Below, piece by piece: positions 45,830-61,103 of a DNA stretch of 64,000 nucleotides; within the stretch, counting starts at the first letter, position 1, and each line of letters opens with the position of its first letter. The notes under the pieces were generated by a model. It saw only the letters and a list, made by a program, of their open reading frames with translations. It made no database searches and was not told where the DNA came from. Origin of the DNA: a virus; IMG/VR virus record IMGVR_UViG_3300013099_000018, positions 1 to 64,000 of that record; one strand, given 5' to 3'. The position numbers and the translations under genes were made by a program.

Positions 45830-46087
45830 ATGGTAGTGTACATAATAGATGAATGGGATACTTTCTTAGAAGCAGTAGCAACATCAAGGTACAAACTCTA
45901 CAGAGTTAAGAAATTCGACAACAAAGCAATAGTTCAAGCAAAAGCTGGAAGATTAGGCTTTGAGAAAACATTTGACCTTACAAACCCTCGGGAAAAAGAG
46001 GAGTTCGAAAGAATAATGAACGACATCAAAATATGGGATTTCGTAGAAGTAAAAAAAGTAGTAAACGATGACGAATTCTTTTATTGA
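45830..46087 (+). CDS. hypothetical protein
   Basis: 85 aa; AT-rich promoter-like sequence upstream. Confidence 0.6.
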   Translation: MVVYIIDEWDTFLEAVATSRYKLYRVKKFDNKAIVQAKAGRLGFEKTFDLTNPREKEEFERIMNDIKIWDFVEVKKVVNDDEFFY

Positions 46088-46097
46088 ATATTACGTT

Positions 46098-46385
46098 TTA
46101 GCTTTTTTTGCTTTTGTTTAAATAATGTACCAATACTTTCATCACTACTACCCCCTTAATCAACTTATCCAAATCAATCTCACTTTCATCGAATCCCAAC
46201 CACCTCAGTAACTTAACGGAAGCTTCAACAAACTTTCCAGTCTTAACTATTTGCTTAAACTCCTCTGAATATTGCCTAAACAACTCATCATATTGTTCTT
46301 TTGAGATACTGAGTATCTCATAAATCACCTTAGATTTTTTAGCTCTATCCAGTATTTCATCAATAATATTCAAACTATACCACAA
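46098..46385 (-). CDS. hypothetical protein
   Basis: 95 aa ORF; start uncertain. Confidence 0.5.
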   Translation of the reverse strand: MWYSLNIIDEILDRAKKSKVIYEILSISKEQYDELFRQYSEEFKQIVKTGKFVEASVKLLRWLGFDESEIDLDKLIKGVVVMKVLVHYLNKSKKS

Positions 46386-46593
46386 TATCTATATTAGCTT
46401 TACCTCAAATCTCGACAATTAAACGAACCCTATAATTAAACTATTCATCGAATGCAACAACATTTCGAATTATCCGAATCAGAGATAAAAAAGAAATCCC
46501 AAACCACAATTTTAATTGAGTAACACCATGAAAATTATTTCCCCTAGGATTATTTTATAACGGTAGCACTTAATAATACTAAATATAAAAAAA

Positions 46594-47601
46594 TTATGCA
46601 ATGGGATACCTATACTTGGCATGAGTCTCTGGATGTACCACGTCATAGCAATCCCAGTAGACATAGTATACCCAAGGGCTAACGATGCGATTCTCGACAT
46701 CGAGGTACGTTAGTAATTCATCCAACCTTATTAGAGTTAGAGGATTAATCCAATCGTTAGGATTGACGAGCATGATTCTTGAATTGTTTATCAAGTCTCT
46801 TATTCTTAACATTAATGAGTAATTACGCCTATATCTATTGAACCACTCTGGATTGACGTACTTAGCAATGTTGTAAACTGATTCAATTATGCAATATATA
46901 GCACTCTTGTAACCAACGCAATCGAACATTCTTATCTCGATGGTATCAACGCTCTTAATTCTATGCCTTCCCTCTTTACGGTTAGTGTTTATGATTATAT
47001 CATGATACCTATGACTTAAGTTAGCCTCTTCATCATATATCCAGTAATCTTCGTATTCATAGTTGTCATAATGCAACGGTAGAGTTCCGATGTGAGGACT
47101 TTCAAGTTGTCTAAGACTTAACACTTCACCGTATCTTTCGCTCTTAAATGGAGCGGACAATGTAATTCTTGTAATATCGAGAACAAATGGGTACATTGCT
47201 AAAGCATGCTCGACCATTCTGCCAAAGCTCATTTCGGGCTTGTAGCTAACGTGAACATGGAAACCGCAGAACATTCCTCCTTTGATATACGAAACTGGAG
47301 CTATGATACATTCTTTTTCTCTTGCAACTCTCGAAACCTCTTTCATTAGCTCGATTAGCTCATCAGCAACTTCTTTCCAGTCCTCAGAAGGATTAGTTCT
47401 AATCTCAAGCTGGTACTCATAGTAGTCTTTGTAAACCCTTTCATCGAACTCTGAGTAAATGTCCTCGATTACGTCTTTCTCATTTAGTAGTTCATATCTA
47501 TCTTCATAGATGTCGATGAGATAGATTTCCATCTCAGCACCAATTACAACCTCTTTTTCAAACTTAGCCTCTAAAGCTTCTTCCAACCTCGAAAGGAGCA
47601 T
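46594..47601 (-). CDS. carboxylate-amine ligase (glutamate-cysteine ligase/GCS2-like fold)
   Basis: IGAEMEIYL, QLEIRTNP, GFHVHV, TIEIRMFD; GAGGTGA SD before MLLSRL (track start 47625). Confidence 0.8.
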   Translation of the reverse strand: MLLSRLEEALEAKFEKEVVIGAEMEIYLIDIYEDRYELLNEKDVIEDIYSEFDERVYKDYYEYQLEIRTNPSEDWKEVADELIELMKEVSRVAREKECIIAPVSYIKGGMFCGFHVHVSYKPEMSFGRMVEHALAMYPFVLDITRITLSAPFKSERYGEVLSLRQLESPHIGTLPLHYDNYEYEDYWIYDEEANLSHRYHDIIINTNRKEGRHRIKSVDTIEIRMFDCVGYKSAIYCIIESVYNIAKYVNPEWFNRYRRNYSLMLRIRDLINNSRIMLVNPNDWINPLTLIRLDELLTYLDVENRIVSPWVYYVYWDCYDVVHPETHAKYRYPIA

Positions 47602-47628
47602 ACCCATCACCTCACTTAAATCCAAAAA

Positions 47629-48480
47629 TTAGAGGTAAAATCTCCAATCTCTCCAGATATCCCATTCTTCCTCAACATGGCAATCGCAGTTTAGTGATTT
47701 CCCTTTAACCTTGAACTCGATGAAGTCATTGTATTCTTCTCCGTCTCTTGAATAAACGAGGAGTTCACAGTCTCTTAAAGCTTTGATTTTCTTGACCCTG
47801 ATTTCTTCGAGCATCCATCTTTCTGATGCAAACCATAGCTTGCTGTTTTTGAAACCATAGAACAATGGTCTTTCAAATCTGAATAAAGCAAGTAGGTCAT
47901 CTTTCTTTGAATATATCCAGAGTGCCATGTCCCCGAAATATATCAAGTAGCTTAAGGCTCTTTCGAGAGCCTCGATGAAATCATTGTATTTGTTATACTC
48001 TTCTTGAATTGCTACTCCTATTTCGAATGAGTCTGTTTCAGGCAAATCCGTTTCAACTTTACCAAGTATTTCATAGGTATCGATGTATTCGTAATCGTAA
48101 TCGAATTTAGAATTTCCACTCCTTATGTCCTTGAACAATGTATATTCGTAAAGCATGCCATTGTGAGCAAATACTATATCCTTAAGCTCGAAAGGATGGT
48201 TGTTTTTGTTTTTCAATGGGTCTCCAATGGTTGGCTCTCTGGTGTGCATTAGGAACATGTTTCTACCTACAACAAGCTCACTGAATGGTCTTATCCTATC
48301 AATCATCTCGATGACATCTGAAGCACTGGAAGGGAACTTTATCACGTTTTCACCATTGTAAAAGCCAAAGGCTTTATCGCCTCTCGATTGCAGATAGATT
48401 GCTAGCTCGATGAGTCTCTTGGCATCTCTCTTGTCCAGTCTTACATCACCTAATCCCCAAACTCCACCTATACCGCACAT
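47629..48480 (-). CDS. class II (Ntn) glutamine amidotransferase
   Basis: N-terminal MCGIGG, SRG, HTR, NNHPF, AHNG, ETDS. Confidence 0.9.
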   Translation of the reverse strand: MCGIGGVWGLGDVRLDKRDAKRLIELAIYLQSRGDKAFGFYNGENVIKFPSSASDVIEMIDRIRPFSELVVGRNMFLMHTREPTIGDPLKNKNNHPFELKDIVFAHNGMLYEYTLFKDIRSGNSKFDYDYEYIDTYEILGKVETDLPETDSFEIGVAIQEEYNKYNDFIEALERALSYLIYFGDMALWIYSKKDDLLALFRFERPLFYGFKNSKLWFASERWMLEEIRVKKIKALRDCELLVYSRDGEEYNDFIEFKVKGKSLNCDCHVEEEWDIWRDWRFYL

Positions 48481-48609
48481 ACTACCACCTCTACAATAAA
48501 ATAGTCGAACAAACGTTATATAAACCTTGCGGTATTAATGAGATAGGGATTTAGATATAATGGCTTGAGATTCTTTAGAAACGAATAAGGTGGAAAAACA
48601 AAAAAGGAT

Positions 48610-48864
48610 TTAATAGTTTTTATATTCCTGAAGTAGCTGGACTATAGATTCTAATCTCGACATTAATAGCCTTATATCTTCACCATATTTATCAAGTAAC
48701 TCTGTGAATGTCTTTAGTACAGTTTCATCTTTGTATTTCATACTGTGTAAGATTACAGCTATATGTCCAACTTCTGTTTTTATCTCTCTAAGGCTACTTA
48801 GGACTGCTTCCAGCTTACCATAAGTATACCATACTGTTTTTTCCAATTCAACCCTACCCTCCAT
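48610..48864 (-). CDS. small coiled-coil early protein
   Basis: Shared promoter motif and GAGGTGG SD. Confidence 0.6.
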   Translation of the reverse strand: MEGRVELEKTVWYTYGKLEAVLSSLREIKTEVGHIAVILHSMKYKDETVLKTFTELLDKYGEDIRLLMSRLESIVQLLQEYKNY

Positions 48865-49002
48865 CTCAACCACCTCTATACCTAACTATGCCATAATTGT
48901 TATATAAATCTTGTGGTATTACACTATAGAGGATTAGCAGATAGAACCAAGCTAAACAATTTTAGAATTATTACAAAAAAGGAGAAATAATTAAAGAAAT
49001 AA

Positions 49003-49368
49003 TTAGATTGAAAGTTTTATGATTGGCTCTAGAATGTTCCTGAGTTTTTCAATACCATATGCTCCAGTTGCGAATATTGTTAAGTAGTATTCACCAAAAC
49101 TGTAAGCACAAATGCATGAACCAGGAATTATGCTTGAAATTTTGGATTCATCTCCTTTTCTCACGACAATACTCGCCTGCACCTCGTAGATGTTCTCTCC
49201 GATTTCTGCGACCTTTATCGCACTGTGTGCAAGGATTTTTGGTTGTACTGGCTTGTGTATATAGACTGTTTGACCATCTACATGAACTTCTGCCCCGAAT
49301 TTCTTTGCTAACTCTTCTACTATTTTTACCATTTCCAATTCAACCCTATCCACCTTAGCCTTTGCCAT
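49003..49368 (-). CDS. small early protein
   Basis: Shared promoter motif and GAGGTGG SD; 5' end similar to 48610..48864. Confidence 0.65.
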   Translation of the reverse strand: MAKAKVDRVELEMVKIVEELAKKFGAEVHVDGQTVYIHKPVQPKILAHSAIKVAEIGENIYEVQASIVVRKGDESKISSIIPGSCICAYSFGEYYLTIFATGAYGIEKLRNILEPIIKLSI

Positions 49369-49404
49369 CTCAACCACCTCTATCTTATCCTATACCGCAA
49401 TTGC

Positions 49405-49425
49405 TATATAAACTTTGCGGTATTA
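49405..49425 (-). promoter_or_regulatory. conserved promoter TAATACCGCAAAGTTTATATA; variants near 48515-48537, 48900-48922 and 51301-51322
   Basis: The same motif plus TATA precedes four consecutive terminal transcription units. Confidence 0.8.
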
Positions 49426-49910
49426 GCTCGACATAACAATTAAAACCTCTCGACATATTTATAAAAATGGCTCGATGTAAAGGATATCAAGAATATTCCG
49501 ACAGATGAATGAAAACGGCTCGACATGAGCCTCTTTCGCCCCCCATTCTGGGATTTTTATAATTTGATTTTTATAATTTCGCCCCCATGTTAGTCTCCGC
49601 CCCCGCCTCCGCATTCTATTGCGGATTTTTATAATTTGGTTTTTATTGTTTTCACCCTTTGCTAATGTCCATGCCTACCGTGATTTCCTTTTTGGGGTTT
49701 TTATAATGCGATTTTTATAATGACTGCCGTGTCATAATGTCTGATTCCCACATGCTGACATTTATCGAGCATTTTTATTGTTTTTGTTTTATTTCTGCGA
49801 TTTTATTTTTCGCCCATGATTTTAAGTAGCAGTATAGGCATATGTCATCATCATGCTTTGGACTTCCCCCTATAAACCATTCACCGCAAATTCGACACTT
49901 TGGCATGTTT

Positions 49911-51278
49911 TCACCCCCAAGCTTTTATCTGGTTTACAACTTTTCTGTCGATGCCTAAACTTTCAAGCTTACTGATGAATTCATTGAAGTTGTTACTACT
50001 CCATGCTATTTTTGTTAGGATAGTGTTTAGTTTATCATCAGTTTCGACAAAAATAATTTTAGTTTGTAGTTGTGTTGTTTTGCTTTTAGTTCTATATTTG
50101 GTATTTTGCTTAATTGCAAATTTGCTTAAGTCAAATTCAGAATCTGTGGATTCTTCATATTTTGGATATTTAAATCGGTATTCTAGAGCTTTTAGTAAGT
50201 TTACCCCTAGTTCTTTGCTAAGTTTTATAAGTGGTTTTCTTATAAACTTAATAAGTAGTTTAAACTTATTCCTAAGATATAGTTTATCTAATTTGTTTAA
50301 TTCTTTACCATAATAGTTTATCTTTTCATAGATTTCTTTAGTTTTGTTGAAGTTTGGTTCATCGAAAGGAATTTCGTAAGTTTTTAGAGCAATTGCTAAT
50401 AACGTAGCTGTAAGCAAAACATGGTTATCAACGTCTTTAGGTGAATCTGGGAATCTTATTTCTACAGCATAATCCTTAAGATGTACACAACAGTATTTGT
50501 TTATGAAATGGTTTTTGTAGTTGTCATATTCATCTGGGAATTCCTTATATTCATATCTTTCGTAAGTATCAGGAAAACAAAACATATAGCTAAGCAAATC
50601 GCTAAAGAATAGTATATTTGAGGCAATAATTGTATCATAATCGAGCCATGACTTATTGCCATTTTCCCAGGAGATATTAATGTGTCCACCACATTTATCT
50701 TCAATGCTTATGTTTTCTTTTCCAATTTCTGAAACAATAGCCTTAATAGCATGCCAATAGTCTTTTAATGAGCTAAATGGTTTAGTAACAAATTCCATGC
50801 CACAAGATTCATCGTAATAGTAGTTATCTAAGTATGGTTCAATCTTTGAAATATCAATGTCATCTAAGCTATAATAGTCATTATATGGGCAATAATCCCT
50901 ATTGTAAATGTATTCACAATCACTACACCTATCGCAACAATCACACACCAGTTCTTGCCACAAATAGTTTTCTTGACAAACTTCGCAAATATCTCTATCA
51001 TCATTTTCTTCAAGATATCCATGCCTTATTGCGTAATCCCTTATGTCTTCGGGATTACATCTTTCGCAATATAGTTGTTCATTTTGGCAATATTCACAAA
51101 CTGGGCAATTGTCGCAAATTGCACAATAAGAACAGCTTTCACAGTCATAACCGCTTATTACTGTTTCGATTTCTGTTCCTATTTTGTACATGAGTTTTGG
51201 TTTTATTGCTATTTGCTGTTTTTCCGATTCTTTTCCTGATTCTTCTATTATTTTGTCAATAATCTTATCTAACTCCAT
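49911..51278 (-). CDS. amidoligase (COOH-NH2 ligase fold) with a large Cys-rich insertion
   Basis: IGTEIE, GMEFVTKP, CGGHINIS, VEIRFPD; leaderless start MELDK 22 nt after TTTATATAA (track start 51320). Confidence 0.75.
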   Translation of the reverse strand: MELDKIIDKIIEESGKESEKQQIAIKPKLMYKIGTEIETVISGYDCESCSYCAICDNCPVCEYCQNEQLYCERCNPEDIRDYAIRHGYLEENDDRDICEVCQENYLWQELVCDCCDRCSDCEYIYNRDYCPYNDYYSLDDIDISKIEPYLDNYYYDESCGMEFVTKPFSSLKDYWHAIKAIVSEIGKENISIEDKCGGHINISWENGNKSWLDYDTIIASNILFFSDLLSYMFCFPDTYERYEYKEFPDEYDNYKNHFINKYCCVHLKDYAVEIRFPDSPKDVDNHVLLTATLLAIALKTYEIPFDEPNFNKTKEIYEKINYYGKELNKLDKLYLRNKFKLLIKFIRKPLIKLSKELGVNLLKALEYRFKYPKYEESTDSEFDLSKFAIKQNTKYRTKSKTTQLQTKIIFVETDDKLNTILTKIAWSSNNFNEFISKLESLGIDRKVVNQIKAWG

Positions 51279-51348
51279 GTTTAACATTATGGTGTTATTG
51301 TTATATAAACTTTGTGGCATTAATCGTAATTACACTTGTGTAAGTACA

Positions 51349-51530
51349 TATATGAAATTTCATGCATGAATTTTCATATACGAAATTTTGTGTATAAAGT
51401 TTCGTATATGAGATTTCATATAGGAATTTTCATATATGAAATTTTGTGTATAAAATTTCATGCACAAATTTTCATGCATAAAATTTTGTGAACAAAATTT
51501 CATGCACAAAATTTCATGCACAAAAATTCA
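51349..51530. repeat. degenerate 13-14 bp quasi-palindromic tandem repeats (ATGAAATTTCAT-like); mirror 52731-52912
   Basis: About 13 units such as AAAATTTCATGCAC. Confidence 0.85.
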
Positions 51531-51570
51531 CAAGTCGAATTACATAGCCTATATTACAATTCTAAAATAC

Positions 51571-51849
51571 CATTTACTTAATTGCTAATCAAAATTTGCA
51601 TTTTCATATTTGCAAACCTATAATCTCAAGCACGTATTTCCATGCCTTAAATTCCACAAGCGTAAGTACACAATTGTAATTAGTTTGACGAAATTCAATA
51701 GCTGTAATTTGGCGTTCCCAATTAGCTATGTTTAATTGCACTTTTGAACTTACATATTTGTAATTACTCTGTGGTACTTGCATAGCTGTAATTTCGTGCC
51801 TGAAATTGCGTACCTTCAATTTCACAAGACGTATTACACTAATGCAATT
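51571..51849. repeat. degenerate 28-bp-period array; mirror 52412-52690
   Basis: In the mirror arm AATT starts at 52412, 52440, 52468, 52496, 52524, 52552, 52580 and 52608, with GATT at 52636. Confidence 0.75.
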
Positions 51850-52100
51850 TCAGCATGAATCAATGGCTTGTTTTAATATAATCCTAATAATAAAAAGCAA
51901 TTTATACTTGGTTTGCATACACAAGATTTATTCATCTTAAATTATACAAACGGAGCAATGCACAAAGACACAGTCGAGCCATGATGATGAGGCAAATTGA
52001 AATCCACACAGCACTATAAAAATCGAATTATAAAAAACCGCAAACAAAATGGCACAGACGGATTCGCACAAAAATATAAAAACCGAATTATAAAAAACCG

Positions 52101-52160
52101 CTGGCGGAAACCCACATTATATTATTACACGTGTAATAATATAATGTGGGTTTCCGCCAG
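52101..52160. other. putative hairpin telomere or head-to-head junction
   Basis: CTGGCGGAAACCCACATTATATTATTACAC|GTGTAATAATATAATGTGGGTTTCCGCCAG in a non-coding, repeat-rich context. Confidence 0.65.
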
Positions 52161-52982
52161 CGGTTTTTTATAATTCGGTTTTTATATTTTTGTGCGAATC
52201 CGTCTGTGCCATTTTGTTTGCGGTTTTTTATAATTCGATTTTTATAGTGCTGTGTGGATTTCAATTTGCCTCATCATCATGGCTCGACTGTGTCTTTGTG
52301 CATTGCTCCGTTTGTATAATTTAAGATGAATAAATCTTGTGTATGCAAACCAAGTATAAATTGCTTTTTATTATTAGGATTATATTAAAACAAGCCATTG
52401 ATTCATGCTGAAATTGCATTAGTGTAATACGTCTTGTGAAATTGAAGGTACGCAATTTCAGGCACGAAATTACAGCTATGCAAGTACCACAGAGTAATTA
52501 CAAATATGTAAGTTCAAAAGTGCAATTAAACATAGCTAATTGGGAACGCCAAATTACAGCTATTGAATTTCGTCAAACTAATTACAATTGTGTACTTACG
52601 CTTGTGGAATTTAAGGCATGGAAATACGTGCTTGAGATTATAGGTTTGCAAATATGAAAATGCAAATTTTGATTAGCAATTAAGTAAATGGTATTTTAGA
52701 ATTGTAATATAGGCTATGTAATTCGACTTGTGAATTTTTGTGCATGAAATTTTGTGCATGAAATTTTGTTCACAAAATTTTATGCATGAAAATTTGTGCA
52801 TGAAATTTTATACACAAAATTTCATATATGAAAATTCCTATATGAAATCTCATATACGAAACTTTATACACAAAATTTCGTATATGAAAATTCATGCATG
52901 AAATTTCATATATGTACTTACACAAGTGTAATTACGATTAATGCCACAAAGTTTATATAACAATAACACCATAATGTTAAAC

Positions 52983-54350
52983 ATGGAGTTAGATAAGATT
53001 ATTGACAAAATAATAGAAGAATCAGGAAAAGAATCGGAAAAACAGCAAATAGCAATAAAACCAAAACTCATGTACAAAATAGGAACAGAAATCGAAACAG
53101 TAATAAGCGGTTATGACTGTGAAAGCTGTTCTTATTGTGCAATTTGCGACAATTGCCCAGTTTGTGAATATTGCCAAAATGAACAACTATATTGCGAAAG
53201 ATGTAATCCCGAAGACATAAGGGATTACGCAATAAGGCATGGATATCTTGAAGAAAATGATGATAGAGATATTTGCGAAGTTTGTCAAGAAAACTATTTG
53301 TGGCAAGAACTGGTGTGTGATTGTTGCGATAGGTGTAGTGATTGTGAATACATTTACAATAGGGATTATTGCCCATATAATGACTATTATAGCTTAGATG
53401 ACATTGATATTTCAAAGATTGAACCATACTTAGATAACTACTATTACGATGAATCTTGTGGCATGGAATTTGTTACTAAACCATTTAGCTCATTAAAAGA
53501 CTATTGGCATGCTATTAAGGCTATTGTTTCAGAAATTGGAAAAGAAAACATAAGCATTGAAGATAAATGTGGTGGACACATTAATATCTCCTGGGAAAAT
53601 GGCAATAAGTCATGGCTCGATTATGATACAATTATTGCCTCAAATATACTATTCTTTAGCGATTTGCTTAGCTATATGTTTTGTTTTCCTGATACTTACG
53701 AAAGATATGAATATAAGGAATTCCCAGATGAATATGACAACTACAAAAACCATTTCATAAACAAATACTGTTGTGTACATCTTAAGGATTATGCTGTAGA
53801 AATAAGATTCCCAGATTCACCTAAAGACGTTGATAACCATGTTTTGCTTACAGCTACGTTATTAGCAATTGCTCTAAAAACTTACGAAATTCCTTTCGAT
53901 GAACCAAACTTCAACAAAACTAAAGAAATCTATGAAAAGATAAACTATTATGGTAAAGAATTAAACAAATTAGATAAACTATATCTTAGGAATAAGTTTA
54001 AACTACTTATTAAGTTTATAAGAAAACCACTTATAAAACTTAGCAAAGAACTAGGGGTAAACTTACTAAAAGCTCTAGAATACCGATTTAAATATCCAAA
54101 ATATGAAGAATCCACAGATTCTGAATTTGACTTAAGCAAATTTGCAATTAAGCAAAATACCAAATATAGAACTAAAAGCAAAACAACACAACTACAAACT
54201 AAAATTATTTTTGTCGAAACTGATGATAAACTAAACACTATCCTAACAAAAATAGCATGGAGTAGTAACAACTTCAATGAATTCATCAGTAAGCTTGAAA
54301 GTTTAGGCATCGACAGAAAAGTTGTAAACCAGATAAAAGCTTGGGGGTGA
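52983..54350 (+). CDS. amidoligase with Cys-rich insertion (mirror copy)
   Basis: Identical translation to 49911..51278. Confidence 0.7.
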   Translation: MELDKIIDKIIEESGKESEKQQIAIKPKLMYKIGTEIETVISGYDCESCSYCAICDNCPVCEYCQNEQLYCERCNPEDIRDYAIRHGYLEENDDRDICEVCQENYLWQELVCDCCDRCSDCEYIYNRDYCPYNDYYSLDDIDISKIEPYLDNYYYDESCGMEFVTKPFSSLKDYWHAIKAIVSEIGKENISIEDKCGGHINISWENGNKSWLDYDTIIASNILFFSDLLSYMFCFPDTYERYEYKEFPDEYDNYKNHFINKYCCVHLKDYAVEIRFPDSPKDVDNHVLLTATLLAIALKTYEIPFDEPNFNKTKEIYEKINYYGKELNKLDKLYLRNKFKLLIKFIRKPLIKLSKELGVNLLKALEYRFKYPKYEESTDSEFDLSKFAIKQNTKYRTKSKTTQLQTKIIFVETDDKLNTILTKIAWSSNNFNEFISKLESLGIDRKVVNQIKAWG

Positions 54351-54892
54351 AAACATGCCAAAGTGTCGAATTTGCGGTGAATGGTTTATAGGGGGAAGTC
54401 CAAAGCATGATGATGACATATGCCTATACTGCTACTTAAAATCATGGGCGAAAAATAAAATCGCAGAAATAAAACAAAAACAATAAAAATGCTCGATAAA
54501 TGTCAGCATGTGGGAATCAGACATTATGACACGGCAGTCATTATAAAAATCGCATTATAAAAACCCCAAAAAGGAAATCACGGTAGGCATGGACATTAGC
54601 AAAGGGTGAAAACAATAAAAACCAAATTATAAAAATCCGCAATAGAATGCGGAGGCGGGGGCGGAGACTAACATGGGGGCGAAATTATAAAAATCAAATT
54701 ATAAAAATCCCAGAATGGGGGGCGAAAGAGGCTCATGTCGAGCCGTTTTCATTCATCTGTCGGAATATTCTTGATATCCTTTACATCGAGCCATTTTTAT
54801 AAATATGTCGAGAGGTTTTAATTGTTATGTCGAGCTAATACCGCAAAGTTTATATAGCAATTGCGGTATAGGATAAGATAGAGGTGGTTGAG

Positions 54893-55258
54893 ATGGCAAA
54901 GGCTAAGGTGGATAGGGTTGAATTGGAAATGGTAAAAATAGTAGAAGAGTTAGCAAAGAAATTCGGGGCAGAAGTTCATGTAGATGGTCAAACAGTCTAT
55001 ATACACAAGCCAGTACAACCAAAAATCCTTGCACACAGTGCGATAAAGGTCGCAGAAATCGGAGAGAACATCTACGAGGTGCAGGCGAGTATTGTCGTGA
55101 GAAAAGGAGATGAATCCAAAATTTCAAGCATAATTCCTGGTTCATGCATTTGTGCTTACAGTTTTGGTGAATACTACTTAACAATATTCGCAACTGGAGC
55201 ATATGGTATTGAAAAACTCAGGAACATTCTAGAGCCAATCATAAAACTTTCAATCTAA
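54893..55258 (+). CDS. small early protein (mirror copy)
   Basis: Mirror of 49003..49368. Confidence 0.6.
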   Translation: MAKAKVDRVELEMVKIVEELAKKFGAEVHVDGQTVYIHKPVQPKILAHSAIKVAEIGENIYEVQASIVVRKGDESKISSIIPGSCICAYSFGEYYLTIFATGAYGIEKLRNILEPIIKLSI

Positions 55259-55396
55259 TTATTTCTTTAATTATTTCTCCTTTTTTGTAATAATTCTAAA
55301 ATTGTTTAGCTTGGTTCTATCTGCTAATCCTCTATAGTGTAATACCACAAGATTTATATAACAATTATGGCATAGTTAGGTATAGAGGTGGTTGAG

Positions 55397-55651
55397 ATGG
55401 AGGGTAGGGTTGAATTGGAAAAAACAGTATGGTATACTTATGGTAAGCTGGAAGCAGTCCTAAGTAGCCTTAGAGAGATAAAAACAGAAGTTGGACATAT
55501 AGCTGTAATCTTACACAGTATGAAATACAAAGATGAAACTGTACTAAAGACATTCACAGAGTTACTTGATAAATATGGTGAAGATATAAGGCTATTAATG
55601 TCGAGATTAGAATCTATAGTCCAGCTACTTCAGGAATATAAAAACTATTAA
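55397..55651 (+). CDS. small coiled-coil early protein (mirror copy)
   Basis: Mirror of 48610..48864. Confidence 0.55.
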   Translation: MEGRVELEKTVWYTYGKLEAVLSSLREIKTEVGHIAVILHSMKYKDETVLKTFTELLDKYGEDIRLLMSRLESIVQLLQEYKNY

Positions 55652-55780
55652 ATCCTTTTTTGTTTTTCCACCTTATTCGTTTCTAAAGAATCTCAAGCCA
55701 TTATATCTAAATCCCTATCTCATTAATACCGCAAGGTTTATATAACGTTTGTTCGACTATTTTATTGTAGAGGTGGTAGT

Positions 55781-56632
55781 ATGTGCGGTATAGGTGGAGT
55801 TTGGGGATTAGGTGATGTAAGACTGGACAAGAGAGATGCCAAGAGACTCATCGAGCTAGCAATCTATCTGCAATCGAGAGGCGATAAAGCCTTTGGCTTT
55901 TACAATGGTGAAAACGTGATAAAGTTCCCTTCCAGTGCTTCAGATGTCATCGAGATGATTGATAGGATAAGACCATTCAGTGAGCTTGTTGTAGGTAGAA
56001 ACATGTTCCTAATGCACACCAGAGAGCCAACCATTGGAGACCCATTGAAAAACAAAAACAACCATCCTTTCGAGCTTAAGGATATAGTATTTGCTCACAA
56101 TGGCATGCTTTACGAATATACATTGTTCAAGGACATAAGGAGTGGAAATTCTAAATTCGATTACGATTACGAATACATCGATACCTATGAAATACTTGGT
56201 AAAGTTGAAACGGATTTGCCTGAAACAGACTCATTCGAAATAGGAGTAGCAATTCAAGAAGAGTATAACAAATACAATGATTTCATCGAGGCTCTCGAAA
56301 GAGCCTTAAGCTACTTGATATATTTCGGGGACATGGCACTCTGGATATATTCAAAGAAAGATGACCTACTTGCTTTATTCAGATTTGAAAGACCATTGTT
56401 CTATGGTTTCAAAAACAGCAAGCTATGGTTTGCATCAGAAAGATGGATGCTCGAAGAAATCAGGGTCAAGAAAATCAAAGCTTTAAGAGACTGTGAACTC
56501 CTCGTTTATTCAAGAGACGGAGAAGAATACAATGACTTCATCGAGTTCAAGGTTAAAGGGAAATCACTAAACTGCGATTGCCATGTTGAGGAAGAATGGG
56601 ATATCTGGAGAGATTGGAGATTTTACCTCTAA
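55781..56632 (+). CDS. class II glutamine amidotransferase (mirror copy)
   Basis: Mirror of 47629..48480. Confidence 0.85.
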   Translation: MCGIGGVWGLGDVRLDKRDAKRLIELAIYLQSRGDKAFGFYNGENVIKFPSSASDVIEMIDRIRPFSELVVGRNMFLMHTREPTIGDPLKNKNNHPFELKDIVFAHNGMLYEYTLFKDIRSGNSKFDYDYEYIDTYEILGKVETDLPETDSFEIGVAIQEEYNKYNDFIEALERALSYLIYFGDMALWIYSKKDDLLALFRFERPLFYGFKNSKLWFASERWMLEEIRVKKIKALRDCELLVYSRDGEEYNDFIEFKVKGKSLNCDCHVEEEWDIWRDWRFYL

Positions 56633-56659
56633 TTTTTGGATTTAAGTGAGGTGATGGGT

Positions 56660-57667
56660 ATGCTCCTTTCGAGGTTGGAAGAAGCTTTAGAGGCTAAGTT
56701 TGAAAAAGAGGTTGTAATTGGTGCTGAGATGGAAATCTATCTCATCGACATCTATGAAGATAGATATGAACTACTAAATGAGAAAGACGTAATCGAGGAC
56801 ATTTACTCAGAGTTCGATGAAAGGGTTTACAAAGACTACTATGAGTACCAGCTTGAGATTAGAACTAATCCTTCTGAGGACTGGAAAGAAGTTGCTGATG
56901 AGCTAATCGAGCTAATGAAAGAGGTTTCGAGAGTTGCAAGAGAAAAAGAATGTATCATAGCTCCAGTTTCGTATATCAAAGGAGGAATGTTCTGCGGTTT
57001 CCATGTTCACGTTAGCTACAAGCCCGAAATGAGCTTTGGCAGAATGGTCGAGCATGCTTTAGCAATGTACCCATTTGTTCTCGATATTACAAGAATTACA
57101 TTGTCCGCTCCATTTAAGAGCGAAAGATACGGTGAAGTGTTAAGTCTTAGACAACTTGAAAGTCCTCACATCGGAACTCTACCGTTGCATTATGACAACT
57201 ATGAATACGAAGATTACTGGATATATGATGAAGAGGCTAACTTAAGTCATAGGTATCATGATATAATCATAAACACTAACCGTAAAGAGGGAAGGCATAG
57301 AATTAAGAGCGTTGATACCATCGAGATAAGAATGTTCGATTGCGTTGGTTACAAGAGTGCTATATATTGCATAATTGAATCAGTTTACAACATTGCTAAG
57401 TACGTCAATCCAGAGTGGTTCAATAGATATAGGCGTAATTACTCATTAATGTTAAGAATAAGAGACTTGATAAACAATTCAAGAATCATGCTCGTCAATC
57501 CTAACGATTGGATTAATCCTCTAACTCTAATAAGGTTGGATGAATTACTAACGTACCTCGATGTCGAGAATCGCATCGTTAGCCCTTGGGTATACTATGT
57601 CTACTGGGATTGCTATGACGTGGTACATCCAGAGACTCATGCCAAGTATAGGTATCCCATTGCATAA
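56660..57667 (+). CDS. carboxylate-amine ligase, GCS2-like (mirror copy)
   Basis: Mirror of 46594..47601. Confidence 0.75.
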   Translation: MLLSRLEEALEAKFEKEVVIGAEMEIYLIDIYEDRYELLNEKDVIEDIYSEFDERVYKDYYEYQLEIRTNPSEDWKEVADELIELMKEVSRVAREKECIIAPVSYIKGGMFCGFHVHVSYKPEMSFGRMVEHALAMYPFVLDITRITLSAPFKSERYGEVLSLRQLESPHIGTLPLHYDNYEYEDYWIYDEEANLSHRYHDIIINTNRKEGRHRIKSVDTIEIRMFDCVGYKSAIYCIIESVYNIAKYVNPEWFNRYRRNYSLMLRIRDLINNSRIMLVNPNDWINPLTLIRLDELLTYLDVENRIVSPWVYYVYWDCYDVVHPETHAKYRYPIA

Positions 57668-57875
57668 TTTTTTTATATTTAGTATTATTAAGTGCTACCG
57701 TTATAAAATAATCCTAGGGGAAATAATTTTCATGGTGTTACTCAATTAAAATTGTGGTTTGGGATTTCTTTTTTATCTCTGATTCGGATAATTCGAAATG
57801 TTGTTGCATTCGATGAATAGTTTAATTATAGGGTTCGTTTAATTGTCGAGATTTGAGGTAAAGCTAATATAGATA

Positions 57876-58163
57876 TTGTGGTATAGTTTGAATATTATTG
57901 ATGAAATACTGGATAGAGCTAAAAAATCTAAGGTGATTTATGAGATACTCAGTATCTCAAAAGAACAATATGATGAGTTGTTTAGGCAATATTCAGAGGA
58001 GTTTAAGCAAATAGTTAAGACTGGAAAGTTTGTTGAAGCTTCCGTTAAGTTACTGAGGTGGTTGGGATTCGATGAAAGTGAGATTGATTTGGATAAGTTG
58101 ATTAAGGGGGTAGTAGTGATGAAAGTATTGGTACATTATTTAAACAAAAGCAAAAAAAGCTAA
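57876..58163 (+). CDS. hypothetical protein (mirror copy)
   Basis: Mirror of 46098..46385. Confidence 0.45.
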   Translation: MWYSLNIIDEILDRAKKSKVIYEILSISKEQYDELFRQYSEEFKQIVKTGKFVEASVKLLRWLGFDESEIDLDKLIKGVVVMKVLVHYLNKSKKS

Positions 58164-58173
58164 AACGTAATAT

Positions 58174-58431
58174 TCAATAAAAGAATTCGTCATCGTTTAC
58201 TACTTTTTTTACTTCTACGAAATCCCATATTTTGATGTCGTTCATTATTCTTTCGAACTCCTCTTTTTCCCGAGGGTTTGTAAGGTCAAATGTTTTCTCA
58301 AAGCCTAATCTTCCAGCTTTTGCTTGAACTATTGCTTTGTTGTCGAATTTCTTAACTCTGTAGAGTTTGTACCTTGATGTTGCTACTGCTTCTAAGAAAG
58401 TATCCCATTCATCTATTATGTACACTACCAT
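58174..58431 (-). CDS. hypothetical protein (mirror copy)
   Basis: Mirror of 45830..46087. Confidence 0.55.
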   Translation of the reverse strand: MVVYIIDEWDTFLEAVATSRYKLYRVKKFDNKAIVQAKAGRLGFEKTFDLTNPREKEEFERIMNDIKIWDFVEVKKVVNDDEFFY

Positions 58432-58680
58432 ATTAAAGAATAGGTATAGTTTGCATTTTTAATAAACTTTATCAAGTGTAATTGAGAAAACTTTATAAGT
58501 CTGTGTCTTAGATGTCGTTTGAGATGTGCCGTGTGAGGGTGCACGGTGAACGGGGTCAAGGAGATGTAATCCCGAATCCGATGAGACCCAAGGATGAAGG
58601 ATGCGTTGATAGCATCCAGACACACCTTCTGGACATTCTCTTCCACAAATAAAGCATTTGTACTTTTTCATGATATTAAG

Positions 58681-59049
58681 TCAATCTAACTTAGTCATGT
58701 GTTCTATTGACAGAACTAACTGAGGGTCTTTTGTTCCATCTTCAAGTATATACTCGTATTCATAAGCATCCTTAAGCCATTTATACAATGCTGAGATGTA
58801 TAGTTGTTCACCTTCTCCAGTATCATACACGATTATGATTGACTTTACTCCTATATCCCTAAGAATGTTGATAATCCGTTTCGAGATTCCGAAACCTTTG
58901 AACTTTCTGAAGAAATGGTCATAGTGTCTCCTTCTCGTTACATAGACTAAGCCATTCTGAGATTTTTTGATAGTTCCAACTAACTTTTTACCAATGAAGA
59001 CTTCTACATTCTGTTTCAGAATTTTATTTCTTCTTAATTTGACCTTCAT
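58681..59049 (-). CDS. hypothetical protein (mirror copy)
   Basis: Mirror of 45212..45580. Confidence 0.55.
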   Translation of the reverse strand: MKVKLRRNKILKQNVEVFIGKKLVGTIKKSQNGLVYVTRRRHYDHFFRKFKGFGISKRIINILRDIGVKSIIIVYDTGEGEQLYISALYKWLKDAYEYEYILEDGTKDPQLVLSIEHMTKLD

Positions 59050-59279
59050 TCTCCATCTTCCTTCTTAATTCTTATGACAATGCAATCCTTGAGCAATTCG
59101 TATAGTTCTTTAGAGTCTCTTTCAAGTGCTTCTGGTAATACTCTGTAGAACTCCAAGGTATCCCCAAGCTCTATCTTGAAATTGTCAAGTACATTCTTAG
59201 GTATTGTTACAGATAAAGAATACTGTCCCTTTTTGTTCACCTTGCTTTTACCCAACTTAATACCTAAATCCTCTTTCAT
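59046..59279 (-). CDS. AbrB/SpoVT DNA-binding protein (mirror copy)
   Basis: Mirror of 44982..45215. Confidence 0.75.
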   Translation of the reverse strand: MKEDLGIKLGKSKVNKKGQYSLSVTIPKNVLDNFKIELGDTLEFYRVLPEALERDSKELYELLKDCIVIRIKKEDGE

Positions 59280-59556
59280 GCTATCACCACTATCTTATTA
59301 AAAATAGAAGGAATATATAACTTTCGTGCTTAGTGCAAATTAAAGAGTTAGGATTTCTATGAATTCCTCTTTAACAACTATAACATTTTTACCTCTGCAA
59401 TTGTTATACACTCTTCTTACGAGGTTTAGAGCTTGCATTATGTTATCTGCTCTAACCCTTGTAACCTTTGAAGTGTCGTCTACAATTATACAGACGTAAA
59501 CATTCTCTTTAGAGGTCATCATATCCATAAAAAATTTATAAGAAATGTTAAAAAAT

Positions 59557-60405
59557 TTAATCATTTTCTGATATGAGCTTTGCAAGGGTATTACTGTTTG
59601 ACTTAAACTTAGCTTTGTTTTTATGTCTCTTAGATTTTCTTGATTTATATTCTTCCTCTGCCTTTGCTACCATTTCATCGTAGTTGTCTGGAACTACTAT
59701 TACCTTGATACCTCTTTCTTCAAGCTTATCGTATTCTTCCTTTTTAGCTTTGTAATCACTCTCTTTGATTAGTATTTCGAAATGAGTTGGTCTAAATGCC
59801 ATAAAGATTCCTGAATGCTTTTTCATTTCATAACCTACCAAGGTGTTTTTGTTTTCAATGTATAGGTCTACTGCTTTCCTGTGAGCAAGATAGACTAATG
59901 TTTTACCTAACTCAAAATCTCTTGGTATTGATGGTACTGCTTTACTCACTCCAAGTTTTTCTGCCTCTATGGCAAAATCATGCGGTGTTGGATAGAATTT
60001 CTCTCCAACCCATAGCATAAATGCCTTCTCTGGTGGATGGCATACTGGACAATGAATATCACATGAACATGGCTCTGGGTGTCTTTTTATAGCAATTCTG
60101 CAATCTTTACACAACCATATATTTACGAATTTTCTTTCTGCAAATTCATTTGCTTTCTCCATCTGTTCTCCACATTGTGGACATGCTATGACCTCATCTC
60201 CACACTCTCTCAATAGTCTTCTTGGGTTTAGTCTGACCCACCCTCTTGTAAACTTGATTCCTTCACCGCATACTGGACATGCTGTCAGTGGAAATGGTAA
60301 TCTGTGGCATGGTACTGGTATCCCTTCTCCTCTAATGTATAGTTTCCCTACATGTCTATATCCACAACCTCTTCTTGGCTCTAACCCCCTCAAATACTCA
60401 ACCAT
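59557..60405 (-). CDS. Cys-rich multi-zinc-finger protein (mirror copy)
   Basis: Mirror of 43856..44704. Confidence 0.65.
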   Translation of the reverse strand: MVEYLRGLEPRRGCGYRHVGKLYIRGEGIPVPCHRLPFPLTACPVCGEGIKFTRGWVRLNPRRLLRECGDEVIACPQCGEQMEKANEFAERKFVNIWLCKDCRIAIKRHPEPCSCDIHCPVCHPPEKAFMLWVGEKFYPTPHDFAIEAEKLGVSKAVPSIPRDFELGKTLVYLAHRKAVDLYIENKNTLVGYEMKKHSGIFMAFRPTHFEILIKESDYKAKKEEYDKLEERGIKVIVVPDNYDEMVAKAEEEYKSRKSKRHKNKAKFKSNSNTLAKLISEND

Positions 60406-60530
60406 ATGTAATGTTATGTGTTTTATCTATATAAGACTTATGGTTATATTATAGTAAGTAGATAAGTTGTATATTTATAACCTCTTAGATTTAGTTAAGT
60501 TTATATAACAGTTCTTACAGAAATAAGAAC

Positions 60531-60872: not shown

Positions 60873-60884
60873 AGAGGTGATTGT

Positions 60885-61103
60885 ATGAAAGGATTTAGGC
60901 AAATTGTAAAAAGGGAAAAAGGTAAAGTTGAAAGAGTATTTATACATGAAGGTTGCGGTGGGAGGCTAATTTTAAGTGATGTCAACTATGACATAGCTTT
61001 TGGGGCATTAGGTGCAAGAAAACTAGTATTTACTGGTATAACATGTAAGTGTGAAAAATGCGGTATGGAAATCTACATATCAGCATATGATTTTGAAAGA
61101 TAA
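60885..61103 (+). CDS. zinc-ribbon protein (mirror copy)
   Basis: Mirror of 43158..43376. Confidence 0.55.
   Translation: MKGFRQIVKREKGKVERVFIHEGCGGRLILSDVNYDIAFGALGARKLVFTGITCKCEKCGMEIYISAYDFER

What the first reader, a model, noticed from the sequence alone, without database searches (positions are those of the whole stretch)
46594..51278. Terminal module of two carboxylate-amine ligases plus a class II glutamine amidotransferase
Seen: a GATase and GCS2-like ligase operon and a second amidoligase, both units behind the same conserved promoter at the putative genome end. Known: amidoligase plus GATase neighbourhoods occur in bacteriophages such as phiEco32 and are predicted, not shown, to modify cell-surface or peptide substrates. 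Inference: in an archaeal virus whose host probably lacks peptidoglycan, this points to an uncharacterised early amidation or glutamylation system acting on host proteins, cofactors, glycans or nucleotides, for takeover, superinfection exclusion or anti-defence.
Basis: partly seen in the sequence, partly recalled or inferred. Interest (0 to 1): 0.72.

Follow-up and report, generated by a model that had tools for sequence, protein, structure and literature searches.

The report
Amidoligase–glutaminase module of archaeal filamentous virus
The last genes before the end of a rod-shaped archaeal virus genome do encode two ATP-dependent amide-bond ligases and a glutamine-splitting enzyme, a very divergent form of a gene set long known from bacterial viruses whose product has never been measured.

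Summary
Observation confirmed, with corrections. On the minus strand at 46.1-51.3 kb lie LIG2, a glutamine-synthetase-fold amidoligase (no Pfam hit; AF2 pLDDT 82; Z 17.3 to YbdK-type ligase, top 19 hits all GS-fold); a 43-aa Zn-ribbon; two small cassettes; a class II Ntn glutamine amidotransferase with all catalytic and Gln-binding residues invariant; LIG1, a GCS2/YbdK-like ligase; and orf95. Four copies of CCRCAARRTTTATATA head four transcription units. The first 14 codons of the 469-aa ORF are that promoter, and its last ~52 residues are a separate gene in relatives. The record is a perfect fold-back (2 x 52,130 bp), so the module recurs mirrored at 52.9-58.2 kb.

In 43 metagenomic loci the order LIG2-Zn43-variable-GATase-LIG1-orf95 is conserved. 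LIG2 starts 0.3-1.3 kb from a contig end in 13 of 14 loci, and the compact trio also sits in an integrase/primase-helicase element.

This is a divergent variant of the phage Amidoligase_2/GCS2 plus GAT-II module (phiEco32 type). This scan noted that class in at least 10 other genomes, always with product unknown. New here are the Adnaviria setting, a 16-Cys zinc insert in LIG2, and a C-terminal PIP-box-like tail in LIG2 relatives (lost in this copy), which hints at action at the replisome. Substrate unproven.

The parts
51302..51317 (-). Promoter box P1 (CCACAAAGTTTATATA) for LIG2. The ATG at 51278 lies 24 nt after the box, so the mRNA is probably leaderless.
   Evidence: 4 unique copies vs 0.03 expected. 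The same 24-nt spacing occurs in relatives. 'Leaderless' is inference.
49911..51278 (-). LIG2::S55 fusion gene. The ligase core is 50067-51278, a very divergent Amidoligase_2-type GS-fold carboxylate-amine ligase.
   Evidence: (invariant GxExE, DGSxGxE..T, GGHxNxS, K..K..ExRxPD).
50889..51143 (-). Cys-rich insert in LIG2 between strand 1 and the DGS motif. It has 17 Cys, of which 16 positions are conserved, enough for about four Zn(Cys)4 sites.
   Evidence: 16 positions are Cys in 17-23 of 23 insert-bearing members. Absent in L025 and in P0037/42/45/48. Low pLDDT. Only weak CXXC/LIM-like leads.
49911..50069 (-). S55 portion. It is a separate 51-66-aa gene in relatives and is fused in frame here, with loss of the linker, the PIP-like tail, the stop codon, the SD site and the start codon.
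   Evidence: (P0043/44/50/51).
49775..49906 (-). Zn43, a 43-aa CxxC...CxxC zinc-ribbon protein with a GGGGTGA SD site directly after LIG2.
   Evidence: family F5 in 17 loci, always after LIG2/S55.
49554..49722 (-). Non-coding cluster of AATTATAAAAA units, an inverted copy of the units beside the fold-back axis.
   Evidence: Also noted by first readers.
49405..49420 (-). Promoter box P2 for the sm124 cassette.
49003..49368 (-). sm124, a variable small-gene cassette of unknown function.
   Evidence: also present in L025; no family.
48901..48916 (-). Promoter box P3 for the sm87 cassette.
48610..48864 (-). sm87, a variable small-gene cassette of unknown function.
   Evidence: (family F12, 5 loci).
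48517..48532 (-). Promoter box P4 for the GATase-LIG1 operon. The box starts 52 nt upstream of the ATG, and a GAGGTGGT SD site lies between them.
   Evidence: same offset in relatives.
47629..48480 (-). Stand-alone class II (Ntn) glutamine amidotransferase, 283 aa, with a Trp/Tyr/Arg/acidic-rich C-terminal tail.
46594..47601 (-). LIG1, a GCS2/YbdK-like GS-fold carboxylate-amine ligase of about 335 aa. It always follows the GATase directly.
46098..46385 (-). orf95, a conserved syntenic small protein downstream of LIG1. Function unknown.
   Evidence: (family F4, at least 18 loci, including the most distant L034/L035/L042/L043).
52944..58163 (+). Mirror-image copy of the whole module, the other arm of the fold-back.

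Best explanation
This is a co-regulated three-enzyme amide-bond module that the filamentous-virus lineage inherited from the phage Amidoligase_2/GCS2 + GAT-II gene pool.

Shown:
- LIG1 and LIG2 are glutamine-synthetase-fold ligases with complete metal/phosphoryl-transfer signatures. They should each activate a carboxylate with ATP (acyl-phosphate) and join it to an amine.
- The GATase has an intact Ntn-Cys glutaminase site with the residues that hold the alpha-amino and alpha-carboxylate of a glutamine or gamma-glutamyl group.

Inferred:
- The GATase and LIG1 are always adjacent or overlapping. They act as a two-subunit glutamine-dependent amidotransferase that turns a carboxylate into a carboxamide.
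- LIG2 makes a second, different amide bond on the same substrate. It carries a four-zinc insert, is linked to S55 and Zn43, and in relatives ends in a PIP-box-like tail.
- That tail and the zinc module suggest the substrate is macromolecular and met at the replisome: viral or host DNA, or a clamp-bound protein. It would not be a cell-wall component.

Purpose (DNA protection, replisome takeover or exclusion) is not shown.
For: - Enzyme identities.
- Functional linkage: the order LIG2-Zn43-variable-GATase-LIG1-orf95 holds in 43 loci down to 37-45% identity. The compact trio LIG2-GATase-LIG1 sits in an unrelated integrase + primase-polymerase/D5 helicase element, with overlapping GATase and LIG1 genes. 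The GATase-LIG1 overlap is also seen in L045.
- Shared promoter box.
- Successive ligations by operon-linked ligases are the general reading in the literature (PMC4431377).
- Replisome hint: 19 of 31 LIG2-family ORFs end in Q-x-x-[LIMV]-x-x-[FYW] within the last 12 residues, against 2 of 264 unclassified ORFs and 0 in other families. FEN1 of archaeal MAGs that share the virus's TnpB ends QLTLDRWF or QATLERWF, while LIG2 relatives end QLTLTAFA or QLTLFDFV.
- 16 conserved Cys in the insert.
- Amidoligase and GATase genes co-occur with thymidine-hypermodification clusters in viral contigs (PMC8989533), and the virus has a thymidylate-synthase-family gene.
Against: - No substrate evidence of any kind.
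- The window's own LIG2 has lost the PIP-like tail. The tail's last residue is A, C or V rather than aromatic. Clamp binding is untested.
- The tail could instead dock S55, which would explain why it is dispensable once S55 is fused.
- No 5-HMUDK or aGPT-Pplase family appeared among the listed Pfam families of the genome (only 25 of 40 families were shown).
- The zinc insert is dispensable in some members (L025 and four distant representatives).
- CXXC/LIM resemblance is not significant.
- Whether the GATase supplies ammonia or hydrolyses a gamma-glutamyl amide cannot be told from sequence.
Confidence: 0.4

Rival explanations
1. Soluble small-molecule pathway. The three enzymes assemble or amidate a peptide-like metabolite, such as a gamma-glutamyl compound or a modified cofactor or polyamine, that alters host physiology or excludes competing viruses, as originally proposed for the phage cassettes.
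For: This is the standard reading of the phiEco32-type neighbourhoods (own knowledge of Iyer et al. 2009; restated in PMC11706807, and PMC4431377). All characterised GS-fold ligases except PafA act on small molecules (titles). The trio moves as a self-contained unit between unrelated mobile elements.
Against: It does not explain the conserved C-terminal linear motif, the four-zinc insert, or the fixed linkage to the small proteins S55 and Zn43. No transporter or further tailoring enzyme is present in the module.
Confidence: 0.3
2. Gamma-glutamyl add-and-remove logic. A ligase gamma-glutamylates an amine, and the GATase-fold protein acts not as an ammonia donor but as an Ntn amidohydrolase that later removes the glutamate. 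EgtA/EgtC in ergothioneine synthesis works this way, and PuuA/PuuD follows the same logic.
For: The GATase is a stand-alone domain with no fused synthase. It gives a weak NCBIfam match to EgtC (3.1e-5) and a sub-threshold match to YafJ-type GATase_4. LIG1 is GCS2-like, as is EgtA. The related phage cassettes seen in this scan carry extra gamma-glutamyl-cleaving enzymes.
Against: Its best matches are the true amidotransferases GlmS and PurF. With only ligases and one hydrolase, the cycle would be futile unless LIG2 acts in between. No gamma-glutamyl cyclotransferase or C26 peptidase is present in the module.
Confidence: 0.2
3. Pup-like protein tagging. LIG2, which is structurally similar to Dop and PafA, ligates one of the small module proteins (S55, Zn43, sm87 or sm124) to target proteins.
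For: Dop scores Z 15.6 and PafA Z 14.0 among the top structural matches. Small proteins are interleaved in the module, and S55 is fused to LIG2 here.
Against: YbdK-type and GCL structures score higher. None of the small proteins has a conserved C-terminal Gln/Glu or GG(Q/E); the ends are KAWG, KLWTF, KQKQ or KAKLKA. The cassettes between Zn43 and the GATase vary from locus to locus. An earlier follow-up on a related pair also rejected a tag (e1-5147283).
Confidence: 0.06
4. Ordinary auxiliary metabolism. The enzymes simply boost glutamine or gamma-glutamylcysteine supply.
For: LIG1 hits GCS2/YbdK models.
Against: Scores are far below the equivalog cut-offs, at 32.5 bits against 371. Neither family was found in about 186,000 species genomes by the pattern scan. 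Two different ligases plus a glutaminase would be redundant or counter-productive for making glutamine.
Confidence: 0.04

Closest known systems
phiEco32 / LUZ24-type phage amidoligase cassette (Iyer, Abhiman, Burroughs and Aravind 2009; Pfam PF14395, PF12224)
   Same: It combines two different GS-fold COOH-NH2 ligases with a stand-alone class II GATase on a virus, and the product is unknown. A bridging locus, L045, has RimK ATP-grasp + COOH-NH2_lig + GATase + a LIG1 homologue + GATase.
   Different: The module here has no ATP-grasp ligase and no gamma-glutamyl cyclotransferase or C26 hydrolase. LIG2 is below detection by every Pfam model. The host is archaeal and the virion filamentous. The position is terminal, with four dedicated promoter boxes. 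Extra parts are S55, Zn43 and orf95.
Amidoligase_2 (PF12224) + GATase gene pairs of tailed phages and mobile elements, including zinc-finger-bearing amidoligases
   Same: The LIG2 profile matches a bona fide Amidoligase_2 next to a GATase in L003 at 90.7%, E 1.3e-6. 27 of the 30 nearest atlas clusters are viral Amidoligase_2. Zinc modules on amidoligases are seen elsewhere (lead, e1-5147283).
   Different: Here the GATase is coupled to the other ligase (LIG1), not to the Amidoligase_2-type one. The 16-Cys insert and the PIP-like tail are particular to this clade.
YbdK / GCS2 carboxylate-amine ligases (PF04107; PDB 1R8G, 1TT4)
   Same: This is the best structural match for LIG2 (Z 17.3). LIG1 shares the E-x-E, E, H-x-H motif register with E. 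coli YbdK and hits GCS2 in 21 of 24 members.
   Different: Scores are far below the equivalog cut-offs. The genes are viral only. They are paired with a GATase.
EgtA/EgtC of ergothioneine synthesis, and PafA/Dop of pupylation
   Same: A GS-fold ligase is combined with a class II GATase-fold amidohydrolase (Egt), or two paralogous GS-fold enzymes sit in one system (Paf/Dop). This rests on own knowledge.
   Different: There are no EgtB/D/E partners and no Pup-like tag.
Amidoligase + GATase genes reported in archaeal tailed viruses
   Same: The host is archaeal, peptidoglycan cannot be the target, and the function is only guessed.
   Different: The viral realm differs (Adnaviria versus Duplodnaviria). 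No sequence relatives were found in IMG/VR or the phage collection.

Membership tests
GS-fold carboxylate-amine ligase superfamily (LIG2) | Glutamine-synthetase-like catalytic fold | tested here: met
   AF2 on alignment A2 gives pLDDT 82 and pTM 0.73. With VIA-align the top 19 chains are all GS-fold ligases: Z 17.3 (rmsd 3.7, 243 aligned) down to 10.0, and the next fold scores 6.1. The top Foldseek hits are the same class.
GS-fold carboxylate-amine ligase superfamily (LIG2 and LIG1) | Metal/phosphate-binding signature E-x-E ... E ... H ... E-x-R on the core strands | tested here: met
   LIG2 has invariant E36, E38, E162, H199, E273 and R275 in core numbering. LIG1 has invariant E31, E33, E74, H123/H125, E230 and R232. 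hhalign aligns the E and H motifs of the two families (72%, E 3.4e-5).
Amidoligase_2 (PF12224), for LIG2 | Match to the Pfam model at its gathering score | tested here: not met
   0 of 28 family members match even at E <= 1. LIG2 therefore lies outside the family as currently modelled.
Amidoligase_2 (PF12224), for LIG2 | Profile-level homology to a bona fide member, covering the DxS..GxE, GxHxH and ExR motifs | tested here: met
   hhalign of A2 against the L003 protein (PF12224 at E 1.7e-10) gives 90.7%, E 1.3e-6, over 117 columns. The atlas places 27 of 30 nearest named clusters in the PF12224 set.
GCS2 / YbdK (PF04107), for LIG1 | Match to the Pfam or NCBIfam model at its curated cut-off | tested here: inconclusive
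   The window copy scores 18 bits against a cut-off of 21. 21 of 24 relatives match at E <= 0.01, the best at 4.2e-6. The NCBIfam YbdK equivalog gives 32.5 bits against 371, so LIG1 is not an orthologue.
Class II (Ntn) glutamine amidotransferase | N-terminal catalytic Cys directly after the initiator Met | tested here: met
   MCGIGG is present, and Cys2 is invariant in 12 of 12 aligned members, some of which have short N-terminal extensions in the raw ORFs.
Class II (Ntn) glutamine amidotransferase | Glutamine-binding Arg, oxyanion-hole Asn-Gly and Asp (GlmS R73, N98-G99, D123; numbering from own knowledge) | tested here: met
   The profile alignment to GlmS 1xff (E 7e-10) pairs HTR, HNG and ETD with the invariant H79-T80-R81, H106-N107-G108 and D150. 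GATase_6 scores 33.8 bits, above the cut-off of 27.
Class II (Ntn) glutamine amidotransferase | Coupling to a synthase through an ammonia channel | not testable with these tools
   There is no fused synthase domain. Only gene adjacency or overlap with LIG1 was observed.
phiEco32-type amidoligase cassette | ATP-grasp ligase and a gamma-glutamyl-cleaving enzyme alongside the GS-fold ligases and GAT-II | tested here: not met
   No such domain was found in any ORF of 46.1-51.3 kb. They are present in the distant locus L045 (RimK).
Pupylation-like tagging | A small disordered tag ending in GG-Q/E beside the ligase | tested here: not met
   The C-termini of S55, Zn43, sm87 and sm124 are not Q/E-terminal and are not conserved in that sense.
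PCNA-interacting (PIP-box) proteins, for LIG2 relatives | C-terminal Q-x-x-[LIMV]-x-x-[FYW]-[FYWL] after a flexible linker (consensus from own knowledge) | tested here: inconclusive
   Positions 1, 4 and 7 are met in 19 of 31 family ORFs, against 2 of 264 background ORFs. Position 8 is A, C, V or T. The motif is absent from the window copy. FEN1 tails are given for comparison. Binding was not tested.

The most novel reading that the evidence does not exclude
In this clade of filamentous archaeal viruses, the zinc-rich amidoligase LIG2 is tethered to the sliding clamp by its C-terminal PIP-like tail. Together with the GATase-LIG1 amidotransferase it installs an amide-linked group on replicating DNA (a new kind of nucleobase hypermodification) or on the clamp or replisome itself. 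If so, this would give the long-orphan phage amidoligase/GATase modules their first defined macromolecular target.
Probability: 0.15. Interest if true: 0.85.

Novelty: new variant of a known kind. Interest (0 to 1): 0.52.

Why it matters
Amidoligase plus GAT-II modules are present in hundreds of phages. They were predicted in 2009 and still have no measured product.

This variant is stripped to three enzymes. It is conserved at the terminus of a whole clade of vent-associated Adnaviria, and it also travels in an unrelated integrative element, so it is a compact, self-sufficient unit suitable for reconstitution.

Because the host is an archaeon, the usual 'peptidoglycan modification' label cannot apply, which narrows the possible substrates for the whole module class.

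The PIP-like tail and the four-zinc insert give a concrete, cheap hypothesis to test: clamp binding, and a DNA or replisome target.

It also shows that LIG2-type proteins are invisible to current Pfam models.

Tried and rejected
- A single-sequence AF2 fold of the 469-aa ORF failed (pLDDT 38.7). Only the alignment-based model was used.
- PDB sequence and profile searches gave nothing meaningful for LIG1 or LIG2, and nothing for the single GATase sequence.
- tblastn of LIG1 and LIG2 against 50,697 phage records found no match.
- IMG/VR scans found no LIG2 relative and only one distant LIG1 relative, L003.
- The pattern scan of species genomes found no LIG1 relative.
- PADLOC gave no hits for seven module proteins.
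- The small proteins have no significant Pfam family.
- hhalign of the LIG2 profile against the L045 COOH-NH2_lig is weak (17.6%), and against E. coli YbdK by sequence it gives nothing. The relation to YbdK is structural only.
- The canonical thymidine-hypermodification partners were not seen among the 25 listed families of the genome. The list was truncated at 25 of 40 families, so this is not proof of absence.
- Host identification failed. The window's TnpB is 91-92% identical to copies in two 'uncultured archaeon' MAGs. The tool gives no taxonomy for them, and no McrA was found. An Archaeoglobus-like look of their FEN1 is only my recollection.
- Pup-like tagging and plain Gln or gamma-Glu-Cys synthesis were considered and ranked low (see rival explanations).

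Full report
**1. What is in the sequence**

ORF listing of 44-54 kb showed a mirror-symmetric gene pattern. The repeat search found one perfect, spacerless inverted repeat: 40261-52130 against 52131-64000, 100% complementary. The record that holds the window is an IMG/VR virus record of 104,260 bases, exactly 2 x 52,130. Everything described below recurs mirrored at 52944-58163 (+).

The rest of the unit is a rudivirus/lipothrixvirus-like archaeal virus. It has two Sulf_coat_C coat proteins, an Hjc resolvase, a weak SFV1_VP4 hit, intein-bearing glycosyltransferases, FkbM and TRM5/TYW2 methyltransferases, a thymidylate-synthase-family protein and a TnpB. From my own knowledge, rudiviruses have hairpin ends and head-to-head replicative intermediates, so the fold-back may be real biology or an assembly read-through. 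I did not resolve this.

**2. The three enzymes**

*GATase (47629-48480, minus strand).*
- It starts MCGIGG.
- Pfam GATase_6 scores above its cut-off (33.8 vs 27). NCBIfam and PHROGs point to the GlmS, PurF and EgtC glutaminase domains.
- In a 12-member family alignment the invariant positions are Cys2, R33-G34, H79-T80-R81, N94-H95-P96, H106-N107-G108, D150-S151 and FASE.
- The profile aligns to the E. coli GlmS glutaminase domain (1xff, E 7e-10). HTR, HNG and ETD fall on the GlmS residues that hold glutamine and form the oxyanion hole (GlmS residue roles from my own knowledge).
- It is a stand-alone domain with a peculiar Trp/Tyr/Arg/acidic C-terminal tail in every member.

*LIG1 (46594-47601).*
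- It has 23 homologue clusters, all about 335 aa and all from metagenomes.
- The window copy is just under the Pfam cut-offs. However, 21 of 24 members hit GCS2, 9 hit phiEco32-type COOH-NH2_lig and 7 hit Amidoligase_2.
- The E-x-E, E-x-R, H-x-H, E-x-R signature is invariant. Its register matches E. coli YbdK.
- NCBIfam equivalog scores are an order of magnitude below cut-off, so it is not an orthologue of a cellular glutamate-cysteine ligase.

*LIG2 (49911-51278).*
- It has no hit in Pfam, NCBIfam or PHROGs.
- An exhaustive HMMER pass over 1.84 billion representatives found only 27 relatives, and none of the 28 aligned members hits any amidoligase model.
- The alignment nevertheless has invariant G-x-E-x-E, D-G-S-x-G-x-E-x-x-T, G-G-H-x-N-x-S and K...K...E-x-R-x-P-D.
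- The alignment-based AF2 model is good (pLDDT 82, pTM 0.73, core above 90).
- An all-against-representatives structural search gives 19 glutamine-synthetase-fold ligases at the top: YbdK-type 1tt4 Z 17.3, plant GCL 16.2, Dop 15.6, GS 14.6 and PafA 14.0. It then drops to Z 6.1. Foldseek agrees.
- Profile-profile comparison links LIG2 to LIG1 over the catalytic E and H motifs (72%). The link to a bona fide Amidoligase_2 protein in locus L003 is stronger (90.7%, E 1.3e-6).
- The language-model atlas places 27 of 30 nearest named clusters in viral Amidoligase_2.
- LIG2 is therefore a very divergent Amidoligase_2-type enzyme that current models miss.

**3. Corrections to the gene models**

- The ORF's 'MPQSLYNN' start is the promoter box translated, and in relatives it is interrupted by stops.
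- Relatives of LIG2 are 390-420 aa. The last ~52 residues of the window ORF correspond to a separate 51-66-aa gene (S55) in relatives.
- A DNA alignment shows that about 65 nt are missing in the window. These encode the linker, the C-terminal tail, the stop codon, the SD site and the start codon. Their loss gives an in-frame LIG2::S55 fusion.
- A 43-aa zinc-ribbon gene (Zn43) follows directly, here and in 17 loci.

**4. Promoters and anatomy**

- CCRCAARRTTTATATA occurs four times in the unique sequence, against 0.03 expected, and nowhere else in the window. The copies lie upstream of LIG2, sm124, sm87 and the GATase-LIG1 operon.
- The box is kept at the same offsets in close relatives, where it also heads other small cassettes. 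It has diverged in distant ones.
- Co-regulation is therefore supported. 'Early' expression is not testable here.

**5. Comparative evidence**

- The metagenome scan returned 43 loci. tblastn and clustering show a conserved order: LIG2 - S55/Zn43 - variable small cassettes - GATase - LIG1 - orf95.
- Family counts are GATase 35 loci, LIG1 33, LIG2 24, orf95 at least 18 and Zn43 17. This holds down to 37-45% identity.
- In 13 of 14 loci with a full LIG2, the gene starts 286-1276 nt from a contig end. In the window it starts 853 nt from the axis. The terminal position is therefore a clade feature.
- In L039 the compact trio, with overlapping GATase and LIG1, sits between a tyrosine integrase and a primase-polymerase/D5 helicase. 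That is a different kind of mobile element.
- L045 shows the bridge to phages: RimK-like ATP-grasp, COOH-NH2_lig (E 1.6e-11), GATase, a LIG1 homologue and a second GATase.
- Neither ligase family was found in the phage collection, in IMG/VR (apart from this record and the distant L003), or in about 186,000 species genomes.

**6. Features that bear on mechanism**

(a) GATase-LIG1 adjacency or overlap is universal. This fits a two-subunit enzyme.

(b) LIG2 carries an insert between its first strand and the DGS motif. The window copy has 17 Cys, and 16 of those positions are Cys in 17-23 of the 23 insert-bearing members, which is enough for four Zn(Cys)4 sites. The insert is missing in L025 and in four distant members. 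Its resemblance to CXXC or LIM fingers is not significant.

(c) After a poorly conserved linker, most LIG2 relatives end in QLTLTAFA, QLPLTAFA, QKPLMAFC, QLTLFDFV or similar.
- The pattern Q-x-x-[LIMV]-x-x-[FYW] in the last 12 residues occurs in 19 of 31 LIG2-family ORFs, 2 of 264 unclassified ORFs, and none of the other families.
- This is the shape of an archaeal PCNA-interacting peptide (my own knowledge).
- FEN1 of two archaeal MAGs that share a 91-92% identical TnpB with the virus ends QLTLDRWF or QATLERWF.
- The last position of the LIG2 tail is not aromatic, and the window copy has lost the tail. An equally simple reading is that the tail docks S55 and became redundant on fusion.

(d) The literature has no experimental product for these modules.
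- Operon-linked ligases are read as successive ligations (PMC4431377).
- Amidoligase and GATase genes co-occur with thymidine-hypermodification clusters in viral contigs (PMC8989533).
- An archaeal tailed virus with the same pair has been reported, with the same guesses about function (PMC11706807).
- The 2026 preprint on vent Thermococcales viruses describes new Adnaviria families but does not mention these enzymes in its main text (PMC12934983).

**7. Most likely mechanism**

Shown: there are two competent GS-fold ATP-dependent carboxylate-amine ligases and one competent Ntn glutaminase. They are co-regulated and inherited together.

Inferred:
- The GATase feeds glutamine-derived ammonia to LIG1, which amidates an ATP-activated carboxylate.
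- LIG2 makes a second amide bond on the same substrate.
- The zinc insert, the small partner proteins and the PIP-like tail point to a macromolecular target at the replisome rather than a soluble metabolite.

My confidence in the enzymology is about 0.9. My confidence in the full statement is about 0.4. The rivals are a soluble metabolite (0.3), gamma-glutamyl add-and-remove with the GATase as a hydrolase (0.2; this overlaps the others as to target), Pup-like tagging (0.06) and plain Gln or gamma-Glu-Cys synthesis (0.04).

**8. Novelty and verdict**

The module class is known. It was predicted in 2009, is widespread in phages, and has been seen in archaeal tailed viruses. This scan recorded it in at least 10 other genomes, always with product unknown. 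By sequence, no other genome of the scan holds relatives of these particular proteins.

What is new is the variant:
- a minimal trio fixed at the terminus of a clade of filamentous archaeal viruses;
- an Amidoligase_2-type enzyme beyond the reach of current models;
- a four-zinc insert;
- a conserved PIP-like tail in relatives.

I rate it a new variant of a known kind and of moderate interest. It offers a specific, cheap test (clamp binding, DNA or replisome adducts) that could finally assign a target to this orphan module class.

Noticed in passing
window 40261-64000 (axis 52130/52131); whole record 104,260 bp: The record is a perfect spacerless fold-back of a 52,130-bp unit, which IMG/VR labels 'inverted terminal repeats'. 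With an Hjc resolvase in the genome, this fits a hairpin telomere or a head-to-head replicative intermediate, but an assembly artefact is not excluded.
   Followed up: partly
window 49554-49722 (-) and 52026-52096 (+): AATTATAAAAA units cluster beside the fold-back axis and, inverted, about 2.4 kb inside. They bracket the LIG2-S55-Zn43 cassette (31 hits vs 12.1 expected in the window). None lies near window position 1. They could be iteron-like sites or a relic terminus.
   Followed up: partly
window 51330-51545 (-): A gene-free stretch of degenerate short tandem and palindromic repeats (...TGCATGAAATTTT...) lies between the LIG2 promoter and the terminus. It was picked up as inverted repeats I2-I11.
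   Followed up: no
window 37082-37720 (-): A short (213 aa) thymidylate-synthase-family protein (PF00303, E 2.3e-15) matches only the C-terminal 60% of the model. Whether it is a hydroxymethylase, and hence a DNA-modification entry point, was not examined.
   Followed up: no
window 3408-5699, 6085-7662, 14205-17753 (-): Glycosyltransferase-like genes are interrupted by inteins (Intein_splicing, Hint, LAGLIDADG_3). One protein carries two Hint regions.
   Followed up: no
window 25347-26597 (+); L047, L048: The TnpB/Cas12f-like gene in the virus has copies at 91-92% protein identity in two 'uncultured archaeon' MAGs (1.5-1.6 Mb, local GC about 42%, no McrA found). This is a possible host link, but no taxonomy is available.
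   Followed up: partly
L039:2780-13221: The trio LIG2-GATase-LIG1 is embedded in a different element that has a tyrosine integrase, a PAPS-reductase-family protein, a MazE-like protein and a primase-polymerase/D5 helicase.
   Followed up: partly
L045:5615-11921 and L003:8073-11680: L045 is a phiEco32-like array: RimK ATP-grasp, COOH-NH2_lig, a 462-aa GATase with a long C-terminal extension, a LIG1 homologue and a second GATase. L003 has a polynucleotide kinase-phosphatase directly upstream of Amidoligase_2 + GATase.
   Followed up: partly
window 47629-47670 (-) and homologues: The C-terminal tail of the GATase is Trp/Tyr/Arg/acidic-rich in every member (for example EEEWDIWRDWRFYL, WWREYRDYDWEYWRYRY). 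The composition is conserved but the sequence is not. Its role is unknown.
   Followed up: no
L025:985-1935: One close relative has a LIG2 in which the whole Cys-rich insert is cleanly deleted (316 aa), so the catalytic core can exist without it.
   Followed up: no
L008:2828-3352 and 14 other loci: A 174-aa coiled-coil-like protein (family F6) occupies the variable slot between Zn43 and the GATase in 15 loci. It is absent from the window, which has sm124 and sm87 instead.
   Followed up: no
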